The notes under the pieces: model-generated
Seen by the model: the letters and a program-made list of their open reading frames with translations, nothing else
What the model was told of the DNA's origin: nothing
Databases searched by the model: none
Part shown: piece by piece, positions 20,201-24,604 of the stretch
Position numbering within the stretch: the first letter of the stretch is position 1
Layout of the letters: each line of letters opens with the position of its first letter
Source: Paraspadella gotoi
Taxonomy: Eukaryota; Animalia; Chaetognatha
Assembly (NCBI GenBank): GCA_051294375.1
Contig: CM119265.1
Location: 12,389,866-12,453,865 of the forward strand
DNA length: 64,000 nt
Reading direction: 5' to 3'
Made by a program: the position numbers and the translations under genes

Positions 20201-21574
20201 CACTTTACAGTGACATTGCGTCAAAACTTCCCTTGGCTGTGAACCCTCACGCGATGGACTCGGCAAAGACCAAGACCCACCTCCTATTTCAAGCTCACTT
20301 CACCCGTTTCCCCCTACCGTCGACAGATTATCTTACAGACACAAAGTCCGTCTTGGATCAGGTTCGGTTAAATTTAATGTTATTTTTTTACAAGTATTAA
20401 AATCTTGAATTATTTGGTTTTATTTTTAAGGCGATTCGAATCCTCCAAGCGATGCTGGACATCTGCGCCGACGAAGGATGGTTACTCGCCTCAGTCCGCA
20501 TCATTTTGCTCTTGCAGATGGTCGTACAAGGTCGATGGATCAACGAAAACTCTCTGCTCACTCTCCCCGGTAAAATTGCTTTTTTAAAATTGCTGTCCCG
20601 ATGGAAATTTATATTTTACAAGACAATTTTATGAATATTTAGGAATCGAACCGTACCACCTCTTTCTCTTCAAACGTCCCGGCCGACAAGTTCGCGCCAA
20701 TGGGCCCCGTAACTCGGATTGTCTTCCCGGCAGCAACATCGAGTCTCTCCCGGAATTGATGGCCGCCGTTGACGGACGCCCCGACGTCCTTCGCGCGATG
20801 CTGGGTGACGAGTTTCAATCAGAGGAAGTTGACAAAATTTACCGACACGTGACACAATTGCCGATCCTTGAGACTGGTATCAAAGTCATGGGTAAGCTAT
20901 ATAATTATAAATATTTATGATACACTGTAAATTTGGCCCGAATAACATTACAATTGTCGTCGGCTTCAGGATGGTGGTGCAATAATGAGCATCAAAAAGT
21001 GGAACGCCTGGTAAAAAACGTCACCAGGGGTACGAGTAAATACTTAAAAGTTCACGCCGACCAGGAATACACGCTGAGTATCGATTTTCGGCGACTCAAT
21101 AAACTCAGGAAAAGAGATTCAAAGGTAAACCATGGCAACCATTAGGGAGCAGAGGCCACAGCATTTTCCACTAATTCGCAATTTTAGGCCCTCGCTCCTA
21201 AATTTCCGAAACCGAAGGACGAAGGTTGGGTCCTCGTCCTCGGCGACGTCGACAACCGAGAACTCCTCGCCCTAAAGCGCGTTCCTTTCATCGGTGGCAG
21301 GGCCTCTCATACTCTCGCGTTCCAGACTCCAGAAACTGTGAGGGCTAAAAAAAGACATAATGTTAATATTTTTTCCCTGGGCTTTTCATTAATGTTTTTA
21401 AATATCTAGGTTGGTAAATGCGTTTATACGGTTTACCTCTTAAGCAACGCTTACATAGGCCTCGACCAGCAGTACGATGTTTACCTAGACGTGATCCCGG
21501 CTTCTATCGAAACGCAAGTCAACACCGAGATGATGGAGAAAGGAGATGAGCCGAGACCAAAGCCGGGTATGTAG
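11263..21574 (+). CDS. ASCC3: Activating signal cointegrator 1 complex subunit 3 (tandem Ski2-like helicase with Sec63 domains), several dozen exons
   Basis: ASCC3-type N-terminus [32 protein letters not shown]; two helicase cassettes (APTGAGKT / [12 protein letters not shown] / [20 protein letters not shown] / [12 protein letters not shown]); C-terminal [11 protein letters not shown]...[12 protein letters not shown]. The unspliced terminal reading ends KPGM-TAG at 21574. Confidence 0.97.
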
Positions 21575-21666
21575 AATTGTAGATTGTACACAATCCAGCG
21601 GGATGGGGTCAAAGTTGAGTTTGCTTGATCTATCATGATCTTTTGCATATTGCTCCTTTTCTTCAG

Positions 21667-22106
21667 GCGACGACGAGAGCGAAGACGATTTCGAAGACGC
21701 CCTGTCCGAGGGAGTTGATGCCGATGGCCAATCTGTCCGGCCGGCGACGGAATATCCTCTCGATTCTGTTTCGAAGGACTCCTCTATGGCCGCGTCATCC
21801 ATGTCGCCATCAATCCAGGCGTTCTCTACGCCTCCCGACGGACGCTCGCCAATGGTTACCCGAAAATCGGAATCAGAAAACGGGAAAATGGACGTCGAAA
21901 AGCCGCTGGAAAAAAGGGCTAACAAGGGTAAACGAGAAAGAGAGAGAAAAAGAGAAAAAAAAGTAAAAAAAAGGTAAAGCCATTCGTGTGATTCAGGAAA
22001 AAAGTCGCGTCGTAAGAAGGGCGCCGACAAAGGACCGTCGTCTTCCGAGGAGACCTACGCTTCCGGTTCCGCGGATTCCGGGGGCCTTTTGAGCAAGGTC
22101 ACTCAG
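21667..22106 (+). CDS. Two low-complexity linker exons (21667-21927, 21997-22106) between ASCC3 and the photolyase-like domain
   Basis: CG-rich, stop-free, bounded by TTCTTCAG/GTAAAC and ATTCAG/GTGAGC. Translation GDDESEDDFEDALSEG...KRANK|GKKSRRKKGADKG...LLSKVTQ. Phases 1/1/0 match both neighbours. Confidence 0.7.
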
Positions 22107-22359
22107 GTGAGCGTAAAGACTGCCTTTTGTAGTGTTGTTTTCGGTTGTTTTTTTTTCTTCTTTTTTTTCATCACGGTCCGCACTTGAGTTTAAGTTTTAC
22201 TTCAGAGGCACTCTTTTTCTTTTTCTTTTATGCTCAGAAAAAACTGTTTGTTTAGACTAGAAACGGCGACATTTTTTAACTTCCCGGTTTTATTTTTTTC
22301 TCGCCGTTTTAGCCTTGATTTTGTGTGCTAACCATCCGCCGCCATCCTCTCCTTCGAAG

Positions 22360-24604
22360 TCCCGCCAAGATCGGGCCCTCTCCCTCCTCTCCTCTTGCAC
22401 CTCATCCTACTTCAATCTCACCCTCGTCGAACCCCGACGAGCGAGACTACTCAACTCGCCCTCTTATCGCCGAGAAGACGACGAAGACGAATCGTCTCAA
22501 GTGCGGTTCCATCGCGAGGGCGTGGTTTACTGGATGAATCGCGACCAACGTGTTCACGACAACCACGCCCTCCTTTATGCCCAGGAATTAGCGCTCAAGC
22601 AGGCGGTTCCCCTTTTCGTCGTCGTGTGCTTCGACAAACCTTTCATGACGCTGAGACAGGCGGCTTTCGTTTTCAAAGGTTTGAGCTGCCCCTTGAAACG
22701 GGATAAGTTCGTTACGCAGGGCTTGGTTTGCTGTTACTTTCGCTTGTATGAACTTGGTCTACCATACAAAATACGTTTGTCTTTTTGCCTGTGATTTTTT
22801 CATTTAGTATTTCGAAATTCATATTTAGAGAAGCTGCCTAATTTGAAACCGTTTTTTTTTTTCATGTCGCGCGACAATGCTGCGCCTATCCAAAAATATT
22901 GATGAAGCGTTTCAAATAAGCGGCAATTTTAAGTATATTATTACTTCTTAGATAACTTCATTTCAGGCCTGGAAGAAGTGGAAAGTGAATGCGAAAGACG
23001 AGACATTCAATTCAACGTCGTTTTAGGTCAGACTTTTTATTGTTATGATAATCTCAAGAGCCGCTTTCTAAACAGTTGATATATCCCAGGTGACCCATCC
23101 AAATCATTAGTCAAATTCATCCTCGCATACAAAATCGCGATAGTCGTAACCGATTTTAGTCCTATGAAGGAAGACGTCGACACCTTGCACAAGTAAGCGA
23201 AGCGCTAATGCCCACTAAACTTGGAACTATCTATAAAACTCGACTCCGTTTCAGTTTTGAATTGGCTCTTCCTCCGTATGCGCTGCTTTTCCAAGTTGAC
23301 GCCCACAACGTGGTCCCGGCTTGGCTAGTCGCCGACCGCTGCGTCACCGATGCTCACGCCTTCGCGATCGCCACCAAGAGACTGCTCCCGCAGTTCCTCG
23401 GCGACTTTCCAACCGTCCTGAATCATCCCTATCTACCTCTAGTTACGCCGGCTTGCGAAGACTGGTTGCGATCGCCCGTGAATTGGACAACGATAGCCGA
23501 CATAATGGAGGTTTGAAGAAGTCTTTTATTTTAAAGTTTGCACGTACTAGAGCTTGTGTCGCTTTTTCCGTGGCGGCGTGAGTGTAAAATCGTGCCAAAT
23601 TATTTCTCGTGGGCCTTTTTTGCGGTCGAACGACTAGTTTTCGTTCGTCTAATGCCCGTGCTTACGGACAATGCCAAACAAAATACCTGAAAATATTTTT
23701 ATTACTTTAAAATATTATTTTAACATTTGGTTTTGATTTAAATGCATTACCGATGCTGTTAGGTCGGCGAGTTTACTGTTTAATTACCTTTCATACTGAG
23801 CGTATCAACTTTCGTGCTCAGGTTGATGCTTCGGTCGACCCAGTGACTTGGGCCACCGCTGGGCAGTCTTCCGCCTTCGATCATTTGGAGACATTCGTCT
23901 ACGACATTCGATCATCCTCTCCCACCCCGCTTGCTTCTCCCTCTTGCCTCACCTCGGTTCTTTCTTGCTCTTCTTCATCTTCATCCTTGTCTTTTTATCT
24001 CAGCGCCGGACATATCTCTGCAGTTCGCGTTCTTTTAGAAATTTGCCCCGACGACGACGATGACGACGAAAGCAACGACGCGACGGTCAAATTTTCCGCC
24101 GTCGCTGATGCATTCGCCGTTTGGCCATCTCTCGCCGACAATCTCTGCTTGTACGATCGACGCTACGACTCCACGGATCCGGCCCCTCATTGGGCGCGCG
24201 TTTCTCTCGCGCTTCACCAGGATGACTCCCGCCTTCACTTGTATTCGTACCTGGATTTGGATGCCGGCGTCTCTCACGACGCCCTCTTTAACGCCGCGCA
24301 ACATCAGTTGGTACTCGAGGGACGAATTCGCGAGGAGGTGCGCTCTTACTGGATCAAGAAATTTCTTGAGTGGACAGTCACGTCCAAGGATGCTCTTCGT
24401 TACGTTTTGCTCATGCTGGAGCGGTACGCTGTTGGTAAGCTCGATCCGTTGGCGTACTTGGAGACGTTGCGCGACATTGTGGGCTTGTACGACGTCCCCG
24501 ACGACGCCGACATCCCCGTCGTCGGACTTTTGAAAACAGTTTCGATGGAATCCGTGGCGGCCAGGATGGATTTTGACAACTATATACTAAAATACTCTTC
24601 TTGA
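22360..24604 (+). CDS. Class II CPD photolyase-like domain, degenerate; exons 22360-22678, 22967-23026, 23090-23192, 23255-23510, 23822-24604
   Basis: Class II signatures GVVYWMNRDQRVHDNHALLYAQELA, GLEEVESEC, VVTDFSP, QVDAHNVVPAW, GHISAVR, LADNLCLYDRRYDS and YWIKKFLEWT. The reading frame is intact across all exons. AATAAA at about 24839. Confidence 0.9.

What the first reader, a model, noticed from the sequence alone, without database searches (positions are those of the whole stretch)
21410..24604. Predicted in-frame fusion of the ASCC3 helicase to a class II photolyase-like domain
Seen: the last ASCC3 exon reads ...PRPKP-G|GTATGTAG. Unspliced, it stops at 21574, about where ASCC3 normally ends. 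The stop sits inside a strong donor (GTATGT at 21567). Splicing 21567-21666 (phase 1), 21928-21996 (phase 1) and 22107-22359 (phase 0, with branch-like TGCTAAC at about 22326) gives one continuous ORF into the photolyase exons. No AATAAA or AT-rich intergenic stretch follows the ASCC3 stop, the 40 codons before the first linker ATG (21786) are open and coding-like, and the photolyase exon at 22360 has no upstream in-frame ATG of its own. Established: ASCC3 unwinds DNA for the direct-reversal enzyme ALKBH3, splits collided ribosomes and acts in the UV transcription response; photolyases reverse UV dimers. Inference: splicing versus retention of one 100-nt intron could switch between plain ASCC3 and a helicase-photolyase-fold chimera. 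I do not know of this architecture being described.
Basis: partly seen in the sequence, partly recalled or inferred. Interest (0 to 1): 0.92.

Follow-up and report, generated by a model that had tools for sequence, protein, structure and literature searches.

The report
ASCC3 read-through into a pseudo-photolyase
One assembled spliced RNA runs from the DNA-repair helicase gene ASCC3 into a conserved photolyase relative that has lost key flavin- and DNA-binding residues, but the splice seen stops the helicase just before it, so a fused protein would be only a minor, still unobserved splice product.

Summary
In the one RNA assembly that holds this locus, a single 7824-nt contig carries ASCC3 exons, both linker exons and the first photolyase-like exon. 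Junction 21566^21667 is there, but the third intron ends at 22312, not 22359. That puts TGA (22316-22318) one codon after the acceptor: ASCC3 becomes 2399 aa with a 134-aa low-complexity tail, and the photolyase frame is out of register. The photolyase part is a full-length class II homologue with two clade-mates and a transcript in another organism; all three proteins replace W360, M379, N403, D409 and W421 and are acidic, so it is likely a non-repairing pseudo-enzyme. Its conserved N-terminus starts 36 codons before its first AUG, so it likely needs an upstream start. A minor in-frame splice (acceptor 22360, or skipping the 110-nt exon) giving a 2900-aa-class fusion is my best guess (0.45); no such junction was seen, and no fused protein was found. 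Own promoter, re-initiation or recent breakage remain open.

The parts
11263..21566 (+). ASCC3 helicase coding exons (36 exons; introns upstream of 19000 placed by hand)
   Evidence: open frame; best PDB match human ASCC3 417.6 bits vs Brr2 277.5; last homologous residue about 21538; joints from 19153 on
21567..21666 (+). 100-nt phase-1 intron holding the in-frame TAG (21572-21574); spliced out in RNA
   Evidence: joint 21565>21666 GT..AG
21667..21927 (+). linker exon 1 (acidic, Ser-rich; ATG 21786 lies inside)
   Evidence: contig piece 21666-21926; coding score best in ASCC3 frame; no Pfam match
21997..22106 (+). linker exon 2, 110 nt; including it before acceptor 22313 ends the frame, skipping it would restore the photolyase frame
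   Evidence: contig piece 21996-22104; isoform table
22107..22312 (+). 206-nt T-rich intron seen in RNA
   Evidence: joint 22104>22311 GT..AG
22316..22318 (+). TGA that ends the RNA-supported ASCC3 frame (2399 aa)
22326..22359 (+). candidate second 3' splice site (branch-like TGCTAAC, AG at 22358-22359), in frame with the photolyase; not seen in RNA
   Evidence: weak score -0.4, 2 of 42 comparison acceptors lower
22426..22678 (+). pseudo-photolyase, first homologous exon part: N-terminal motif at 22426, first in-frame ATG 22534, PF00875
22967..23026 (+). pseudo-photolyase exon
   Evidence: joints
23090..23192 (+). pseudo-photolyase exon
   Evidence: joints
23255..23510 (+). pseudo-photolyase exon
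   Evidence: joints
23822..24604 (+). pseudo-photolyase last coding exon (helical domain with replaced flavin/lesion residues, Ser-rich insert); contig ends at 24760

Best explanation
One assembled spliced RNA runs from ASCC3 through two linker exons into the first exon of a conserved class II photolyase homologue, and the splice seen (22106^22313) ends ASCC3 one codon later, so the photolyase-fold part is likely translated only from a minor in-frame splice that would make an ASCC3 fusion. Shown: the joints, the stop, the homology, the replaced residues, the conservation. Inferred: (1) the main product is ASCC3 with a 134-aa low-complexity tail; (2) use of the weaker acceptor 22360, or skipping of the 110-nt exon (21927^22313), restores the frame and gives a helicase with a photolyase-fold C-terminal module; (3) that module does not bind FAD well or photorepair, and with its acidic helical domain more likely serves as a protein-binding module than as a DNA-lesion sensor; (4) the arrangement likely arose when ASCC3 captured the exons of a neighbouring photolyase gene.
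For: Record 1 of X1 (7824 nt) holds ASCC3 exons and 22311-22679 with spliced joints 21566^21667 and 22106^22313; length fits only this model, 1 of 5 tested. No AATAAA/ATTAAA from 21567 to 24838. The photolyase frame has no ATG before 22534, yet a class II N-terminal motif lies at 22426 (27 of 5000 shuffles score as high; profile from the 6 of 26 ordinary proteins that had the motif), and a contig of another organism (X3) matches 25 of 26 nt at 22516-22541, 18 of them upstream of that ATG, and its 10 visible codons further upstream are open and lack ATG (translated by hand). In X3's loose end behind 23019, 8 of 10 residues are identical and 7 of those 8 codons differ at silent positions (by hand): purifying selection on the protein. 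Two more clade members, P0001 and P0003 (SH support 100), share the same replacements. In-frame routes exist: 4 of 7 isoforms enumerated reach the photolyase stop; coding-like composition begins near 22360, not at 22313; a branch-like CTAAC sits at 22328 with no AG between 22313 and 22357.
Against: No in-frame joint is in X1: all listed joints use 22313 (5 of 10 X1 records are listed piece by piece; the other pieces I inferred from tables 3-5). Acceptor 22360 scores -0.4 against 7.9 for 22313. With three phases, some in-frame alternative is expected by chance, so the in-frame routes are weak evidence. No protein joining a helicase to this domain was found (over 140-3322 aa; 11 long hits scanned, 0 with helicase domains), though the window's own protein was not in the database either. 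Record 1 ends at 22679; the later exons are on separate contigs (joint side 27 nt, below the tool's 31), and a contig across two genes does not prove one molecule. One RNA data set only; it may come from the same sample as the window. No genomic locus of a relative was obtained, so linkage to ASCC3 in other species is untested. Frames 1 and 2 tie in the codon test at 22426-22533 (27.1 vs 27.0 bits).
Confidence: 0.45

Rival explanations
1. Two overlapping genes: the pseudo-photolyase has its own promoter in or just after the 206-nt intron and starts at ATG 22534 (448 aa) or at a near-cognate codon; ASCC3's last exon and 3' UTR run over it and the assembler merged the two RNAs.
For: The tool warns that a contig across two genes shows no single transcript. 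22319-22425 is 74% pyrimidine and unstructured, UTR-like; 22313-22359 is not coding-like. X3's contig begins 97 nt before 22516, about where homology begins, though it is a 450-nt fragment cut at both ends.
Against: Starting at ATG 22534 drops the N-terminal motif and the GVVYW strand that X3 conserves. The contig joins across the 206-nt intron and none begins inside it. No strict poly(A) signal for ASCC3 before 24839.
Confidence: 0.25
2. Recent breakage: the domain was translated (alone or fused) in ancestors, the acceptor at 22313 has taken over in this lineage, and the exons now ride along as a spliced 3' UTR without protein.
For: The only assembled splice is out of frame; the window's branch is the longest of the three clade members (0.67 vs 0.13 and 0.48, but it alone spans the time since the clade's first split).
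Against: The frame is intact over five exons, 539 codons from 22261; RNA and window agree letter for letter in the listed pieces; strong silent-site bias against X3.
Confidence: 0.13
3. Dicistronic mRNA: ribosomes ending ASCC3 at TGA 22316 re-initiate in the photolyase frame at the overlapping near-cognate codons TTG-ATT-TTG (22315-22323), or shift frame, giving a separate (or fused) protein from the major mRNA.
For: TTG 22315-22317 overlaps the stop and is in the photolyase frame, which is open from there; it would explain why the major mRNA keeps four more spliced exons.
Against: Re-initiation after a long ORF is rare in eukaryotes (general knowledge). No canonical slippery heptamer by eye in the junction region, no stable structure after the stop (z +0.70), no Rfam match there; the 110-nt exon scores best in the ASCC3 frame; a +1 shift meets a stop after 5 codons and stop read-through ends at 22537.
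Confidence: 0.1
4. One reading: the fusion through acceptor 22360 is the main spliced product and retention of the 100-nt intron gives plain ASCC3.
For: The frame is open, 2904 aa; junction 21566^21667 exists; other tissues or UV conditions were not sampled.
Against: The assembled RNA uses 22313 and shows no retention of 21567-21666.
Confidence: 0.05

Closest known systems
Human ASCC3 (PDB 8ALZ)
   Same: Best solved-structure match for two exons tested; homology runs to the end of the last Sec63-unit region at about 21538.
   Different: The RNA-supported form has 134 further residues (17% Ser, 19% Asp+Glu, 15% Lys+Arg), and its transcript continues into a photolyase homologue. Human ASCC3 has a UV-induced short alternative-last-exon RNA near the 5' end (PMC5332558, abstract and outline seen); the alternative here would be at the 3' end.
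Class II CPD photolyases (Methanosarcina mazei MmCPDII, PDB 2XRY family; rice 3UMV)
   Same: Full-length homology (profile positions 18-453 of 487, E 5.9e-98); the clade-mate P0001 folds with pLDDT 88.6 and matches MmCPDII structures best (TM 0.77); W381, W388, Y345 and R378 equivalents kept in the window's protein.
   Different: W360>F, N403>L, D409>G, M379>S, W421>R, E301>A, N257/R256>S, R441>K; Ser-rich insert; helical domain net charge -16 against median -1 and minimum -11 in 116 ordinary proteins; no ATG for its N-terminus.
Cryptochromes (photolyase-fold proteins that no longer repair DNA)
   Same: Works-like comparison: photolyase fold kept under selection with repair residues lost (inference).
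   Different: Derived from class II, not from the (6-4)/class I side (mouse CRY matches are far weaker, E 1e-8 vs 1e-25). PMC9498864 (passages seen) lists sponge-specific CRYs and plant PPL/PHR2 with a degenerate FAD domain; no class II-derived pseudo-enzyme appeared in the passages shown.
Red-algal tandem multi-photolyase proteins (P0002, P0004)
   Same: Long proteins with divergent class II repeats.
   Different: Repeats of the photolyase domain only; no helicase domain.

Membership tests
ASCC3 (dual-cassette Ski2-like helicase) | Closer to ASCC3 than to Brr2/SNRNP200 | tested here: met
   417.6 vs 277.5 bits; last exon E 6.8e-10 vs 0.1
ASCC3 (dual-cassette Ski2-like helicase) | Intact frame of about 2200-2300 aa with two helicase cassettes | tested here: met
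   open frame 2399 aa with hand-placed introns; one exon aligns to both cassettes of 8ALZ; Walker A of both cassettes read
ASCC3 (dual-cassette Ski2-like helicase) | Protein ends just after the C-terminal Sec63 unit | tested here: not met
   RNA-supported frame runs 134 aa beyond the last aligned residue
Class II CPD photolyase | Alpha/beta plus helical domain, class II sequence profile and fold | tested here: met
   fold tested on clade-mate P0001 only
Class II CPD photolyase | Trp triad W381-W360-W388 (PMC5885780, passages) | tested here: not met
   W360 is F in all 3 clade members; W in 117 of 118 others
Class II CPD photolyase | N403 for FAD binding (N403L impairs it; PMC9649867 passages citing Kiontke 2011, which I did not read) and D409 (role recalled) | tested here: not met
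   N403 column: L, C, S (N in 115 of 118); D409 column: G, G, G (D in 113 of 118). P0001 and P0003 have an Asn one position earlier, and another alignment put it in the column; the window's protein has none
Class II CPD photolyase | Lesion-pocket residues W305, M379, W421, E301, N257 (W421 from PMC9649867; the rest recalled) | tested here: not met
   W305 column is W; M379>S, W421>R, E301>A, N257>S
Class II CPD photolyase | Basic DNA-binding C-terminal surface | tested here: not met
   last 39 residues net -4 vs median +4 in 108 ordinary proteins; sequence charge only, no surface calculation
Class II CPD photolyase | FAD binding and light-driven CPD repair | not testable with these tools
   needs purified protein
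In-frame fusion gene (ASCC3 + photolyase fold) | An in-frame splice junction in RNA | tested here: not met
   only 22106^22313 assembled; contigs drop rare variants, so a minor form is not excluded
In-frame fusion gene (ASCC3 + photolyase fold) | Fused orthologue or conserved adjacency in relatives | tested here: inconclusive
   none found; relatives known only as fragments; the one locus fetched was an ordinary bacterial-type gene without ASCC3

The most novel reading that the evidence does not exclude
An animal lineage has turned a class II photolyase into a flavin-free, acidic module and hung it on the ASCC3 repair/ribosome-rescue helicase, with an alternative 3' splice site or a 110-nt frame-switch exon deciding, perhaps under UV or other stress, whether the helicase is made with or without it: a cryptochrome-like exaptation from the class II branch, delivered as a splice-gated fusion.
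Probability: 0.35. Interest if true: 0.85.

Novelty: new variant of a known kind. Interest (0 to 1): 0.6.

Why it matters
Two things stand whichever rival holds, short of recent breakage: a small clade of class II photolyase homologues kept under selection after losing flavin- and lesion-binding residues, which I did not find described (paper searches), and an ASCC3 transcript that splices past its usual end into that gene. Non-repairing photolyase-fold proteins are known from other branches (cryptochromes); one from class II would be an independent case. If the minor fusion is real it links two UV/damage-response protein families in one polypeptide and is testable with one RT-PCR. If not, the locus still poses a clean question: how a conserved ORF without an AUG for its N-terminus, behind a stop and ahead of four introns, is translated and escapes decay.

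Tried and rejected
No whole genome was held, so I could not look for a second, intact photolyase gene or check synteny. The run search listed no holder on record as RNA; X1 is RNA by its GT..AG joints. X2 gave nothing (no proof of absence). Depth figures differ between contigs but cannot rank genes or parts, so I did not use them to argue for or against a second promoter. Lack of cover or of minor joints in contigs is weak: Logan contigs are simplified graphs (PMC12424806, methods passages seen), and my recollection of Minia's defaults is that short low-cover side paths are removed. Homologue searches at 456-2000 aa (0 of 2689 candidates) and 140-3322 aa (11 hits of 7994 scored, all photolyase-only or unlabelled, profile dominated by its first row) found no fusion; one search found 1 of 696. 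The metagenome scan gave 1 locus from 320 pattern matches, an ordinary class II gene in prokaryote-like context with no ASCC3 match. Frameshift/recoding signals: no structure or Rfam family at the junction. The bacterial promoter scan is not applicable. Atlas search of P0001 returned only generic photolyase clusters; the atlas search of the linker did not complete. The IQ-TREE run did not finish; the FastTree tree supports the three-member clade but its placement among class II proteins is unreliable (long branches, biased sample). The splice-site model is rough: 25 of its 42 introns were placed by hand without RNA, and one acceptor (25185) was off by one base. Earlier scan notes: nothing on this locus or look-alikes; two fusion notes from other genomes did not bear on it. 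An assembly misjoin or indel error was considered and rejected. The organism was not identified; gene content (HAP1_N, VWD-C8-TIL, C2H2) indicates an animal, and the compact intron style reminded me of homoscleromorph sponges, which is recall, untested. No supplements were read.
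Full report
The sequence at 21410-24604 is as described. The upstream gene is ASCC3: two exons tested match human ASCC3 far better than Brr2, and with introns placed by hand the frame is open from ATG 11263. 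The downstream exons are a class II photolyase homologue over its whole length (profile positions 18-453 of 487, E 5.9e-98). No AATAAA or ATTAAA lies between 21567 and 24838.

What RNA shows. One public run, X1, holds the locus; its contigs skip GT..AG introns, so it is RNA. A 7824-nt contig carries ASCC3 exons, both linker exons and 22311-22679. Joint 21566^21667 is listed, 21927^21997 follows from contiguous record positions, and the third joint is 22106^22313, not 22106^22360. Of five models only this one predicts the contig's length exactly. The listed pieces match the window with no other letter and no gap, which rules out a misjoin or an indel error. The result is ...SKVTQP-stop at TGA 22316-22318: ASCC3 of 2399 aa, 123 aa longer than the intron-retained form and 134 aa beyond the last residue that aligns to human ASCC3. 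The photolyase frame is out of register. No contig shows retention of the 100-nt intron or any other acceptor; 5 of the 10 X1 records are listed piece by piece and the rest I inferred from the other tables. Contigs are simplified graphs (PMC12424806, methods passages) and drop rare forms, so this fixes the dominant form in one sample, not the only form. The contig stops at 22679; the later photolyase exons are spliced but lie on other contigs, and a contig across two genes does not by itself prove one molecule.

The photolyase part is conserved but looks catalytically dead. Two clade-mates were found, both fragments: P0001 (427 aa) and P0003 (255 aa); with the window's protein they form one clade (SH 100). 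Against 118 other hits, all three replace W360 (F), M379 (S), D409 (G), N403 (L, C, S), W421, E301, N257 and R256, in M. mazei numbering taken from the alignments. W381-W360-W388 is the class II triad (PMC5885780, passages); N403L impairs FAD binding (PMC9649867, passages citing Kiontke 2011, not read); the roles of the other residues are recalled. In P0001 and P0003 an Asn lies one position before the N403 column, so that call is firm only for the window's protein. The helical domain is acidic (-16, -8, -12; median -1, minimum -11 in 116 ordinary proteins). The fold is kept: P0001 models at pLDDT 88.6 and matches MmCPDII best, with the caveat that its alignment was mostly ordinary photolyases. 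A 450-nt contig of another organism (X3) has the same intron removed, and in its loose end 8 of 10 residues are identical while 7 of those 8 codons differ silently (translated by hand): the protein sequence has been under purifying selection.

The start-codon problem. The first ATG in the photolyase frame is 22534, inside the conserved YWM motif. A class II N-terminal motif lies 36 codons earlier, at 22426 (27 of 5000 shuffles as high; the profile came from only 6 of 26 ordinary proteins that had the motif by my pattern), and X3 matches 25 of 26 nt at 22516-22541 and is open without ATG for the 10 codons visible before that. So the conserved protein likely begins upstream of its first AUG, which the dominant splice does not allow. 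In-frame routes exist: acceptor 22360, acceptor 22261, or either phase-1 donor (21567, 21928) joined to 22313 (4 of 7 isoforms enumerated). Acceptor 22360 has a branch-like CTAAC and an AG-free run before it but scores weakly (-0.4; 2 of 42 lower, against 7.9 for 22313; rough model). A codon model favours the ASCC3 frame in both linker exons, finds 22313-22359 not coding-like, and cannot choose between two frames at 22426-22533. I found no recoding signal.

Most likely working (0.45). One transcription unit. The major splice makes ASCC3 with a low-complexity tail; a minor in-frame splice adds the photolyase-fold module. The switch would be the choice of 3' splice site or the 110-nt exon, not retention of the 100-nt intron. 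The module is predicted not to photorepair and, being acidic, more likely binds protein than DNA. The first step is shown; the minor splice, the fusion protein and the module's role are inferred.

Against the fusion, in full: no in-frame junction in RNA; no fused protein in three searches or among 11 long hits scanned, although the window's own protein was absent from those results too; no relative's genomic locus (the one fetched was an ordinary gene without ASCC3); in-frame alternatives are expected by chance; a single RNA data set that may not be independent of the window.

Comparison with what is known. It is ASCC3 by sequence, with an unusual tail. The second part is class II photolyase-derived but fails the triad, flavin and lesion-pocket tests, so it should not be filed as a working photolyase; it works, if anything, like a cryptochrome-type exaptation from another branch. 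Paper searches for ASCC3 with photolyase (3 listed, by listing none on a fusion), photolyase with helicase gene fusion, with pseudoenzyme, with sponge terms showed no description in titles or abstract starts; I read passages of PMC9498864 only. The library lacks most subscription papers. Human ASCC3 has a UV-induced short alternative-last-exon RNA (PMC5332558, abstract), a precedent for regulated ASCC3 isoforms but not for this one.

Verdict. Observation partly confirmed, interpretation partly supported. Real and unusual: a conserved pseudo-photolyase without a usable AUG, spliced onto the ASCC3 transcript behind a stop. The fusion protein is plausible, unproven and at most minor in the one sample seen. 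Interest 0.6.

Noticed in passing
window 13796-13866: The ASCC3 frame needs a GC-AG intron here (hand-placed; frame stays open).
   Followed up: partly
window 22679-22994 and 23484-23849: Low-depth X1 contigs run through these two longer introns (unspliced RNA or DNA), with two alleles at 22751 and 22853.
   Followed up: no
window 24760-24844: The pseudo-photolyase contig ends at 24760 and the next gene's contig (HAP1_N/TRAK-like) starts at 24814; the only AATAAA (24839) lies inside that next contig, so the two transcripts may overlap.
   Followed up: no
window 7158-10451: Multi-C2H2 zinc-finger gene ending about 800 nt before the ASCC3 ATG; the ASCC3 contig length implies a 5' end near 11000.
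   Followed up: no
window 50569-52117 and 56420-58021: Two paralogous VWD-C8-TIL genes with long exons in AT-rich DNA, sharing a Cys/Tyr-rich N-terminal part without a Pfam match.
   Followed up: no
window 22534-22537: Read-through of TGA 22316 would end at a TGA that overlaps ATG 22534 (ATGA); probably a by-product of the W-M-N codons.
   Followed up: partly
P0002, P0004: Proteins of 4593 and 1898 aa made of tandem divergent class II photolyase repeats; a P0002 cluster member is labelled Porphyridium aerugineum.
   Followed up: no
P0133: Class II photolyase joined to a flavin amine-oxidase-type domain, 812 aa.
   Followed up: no
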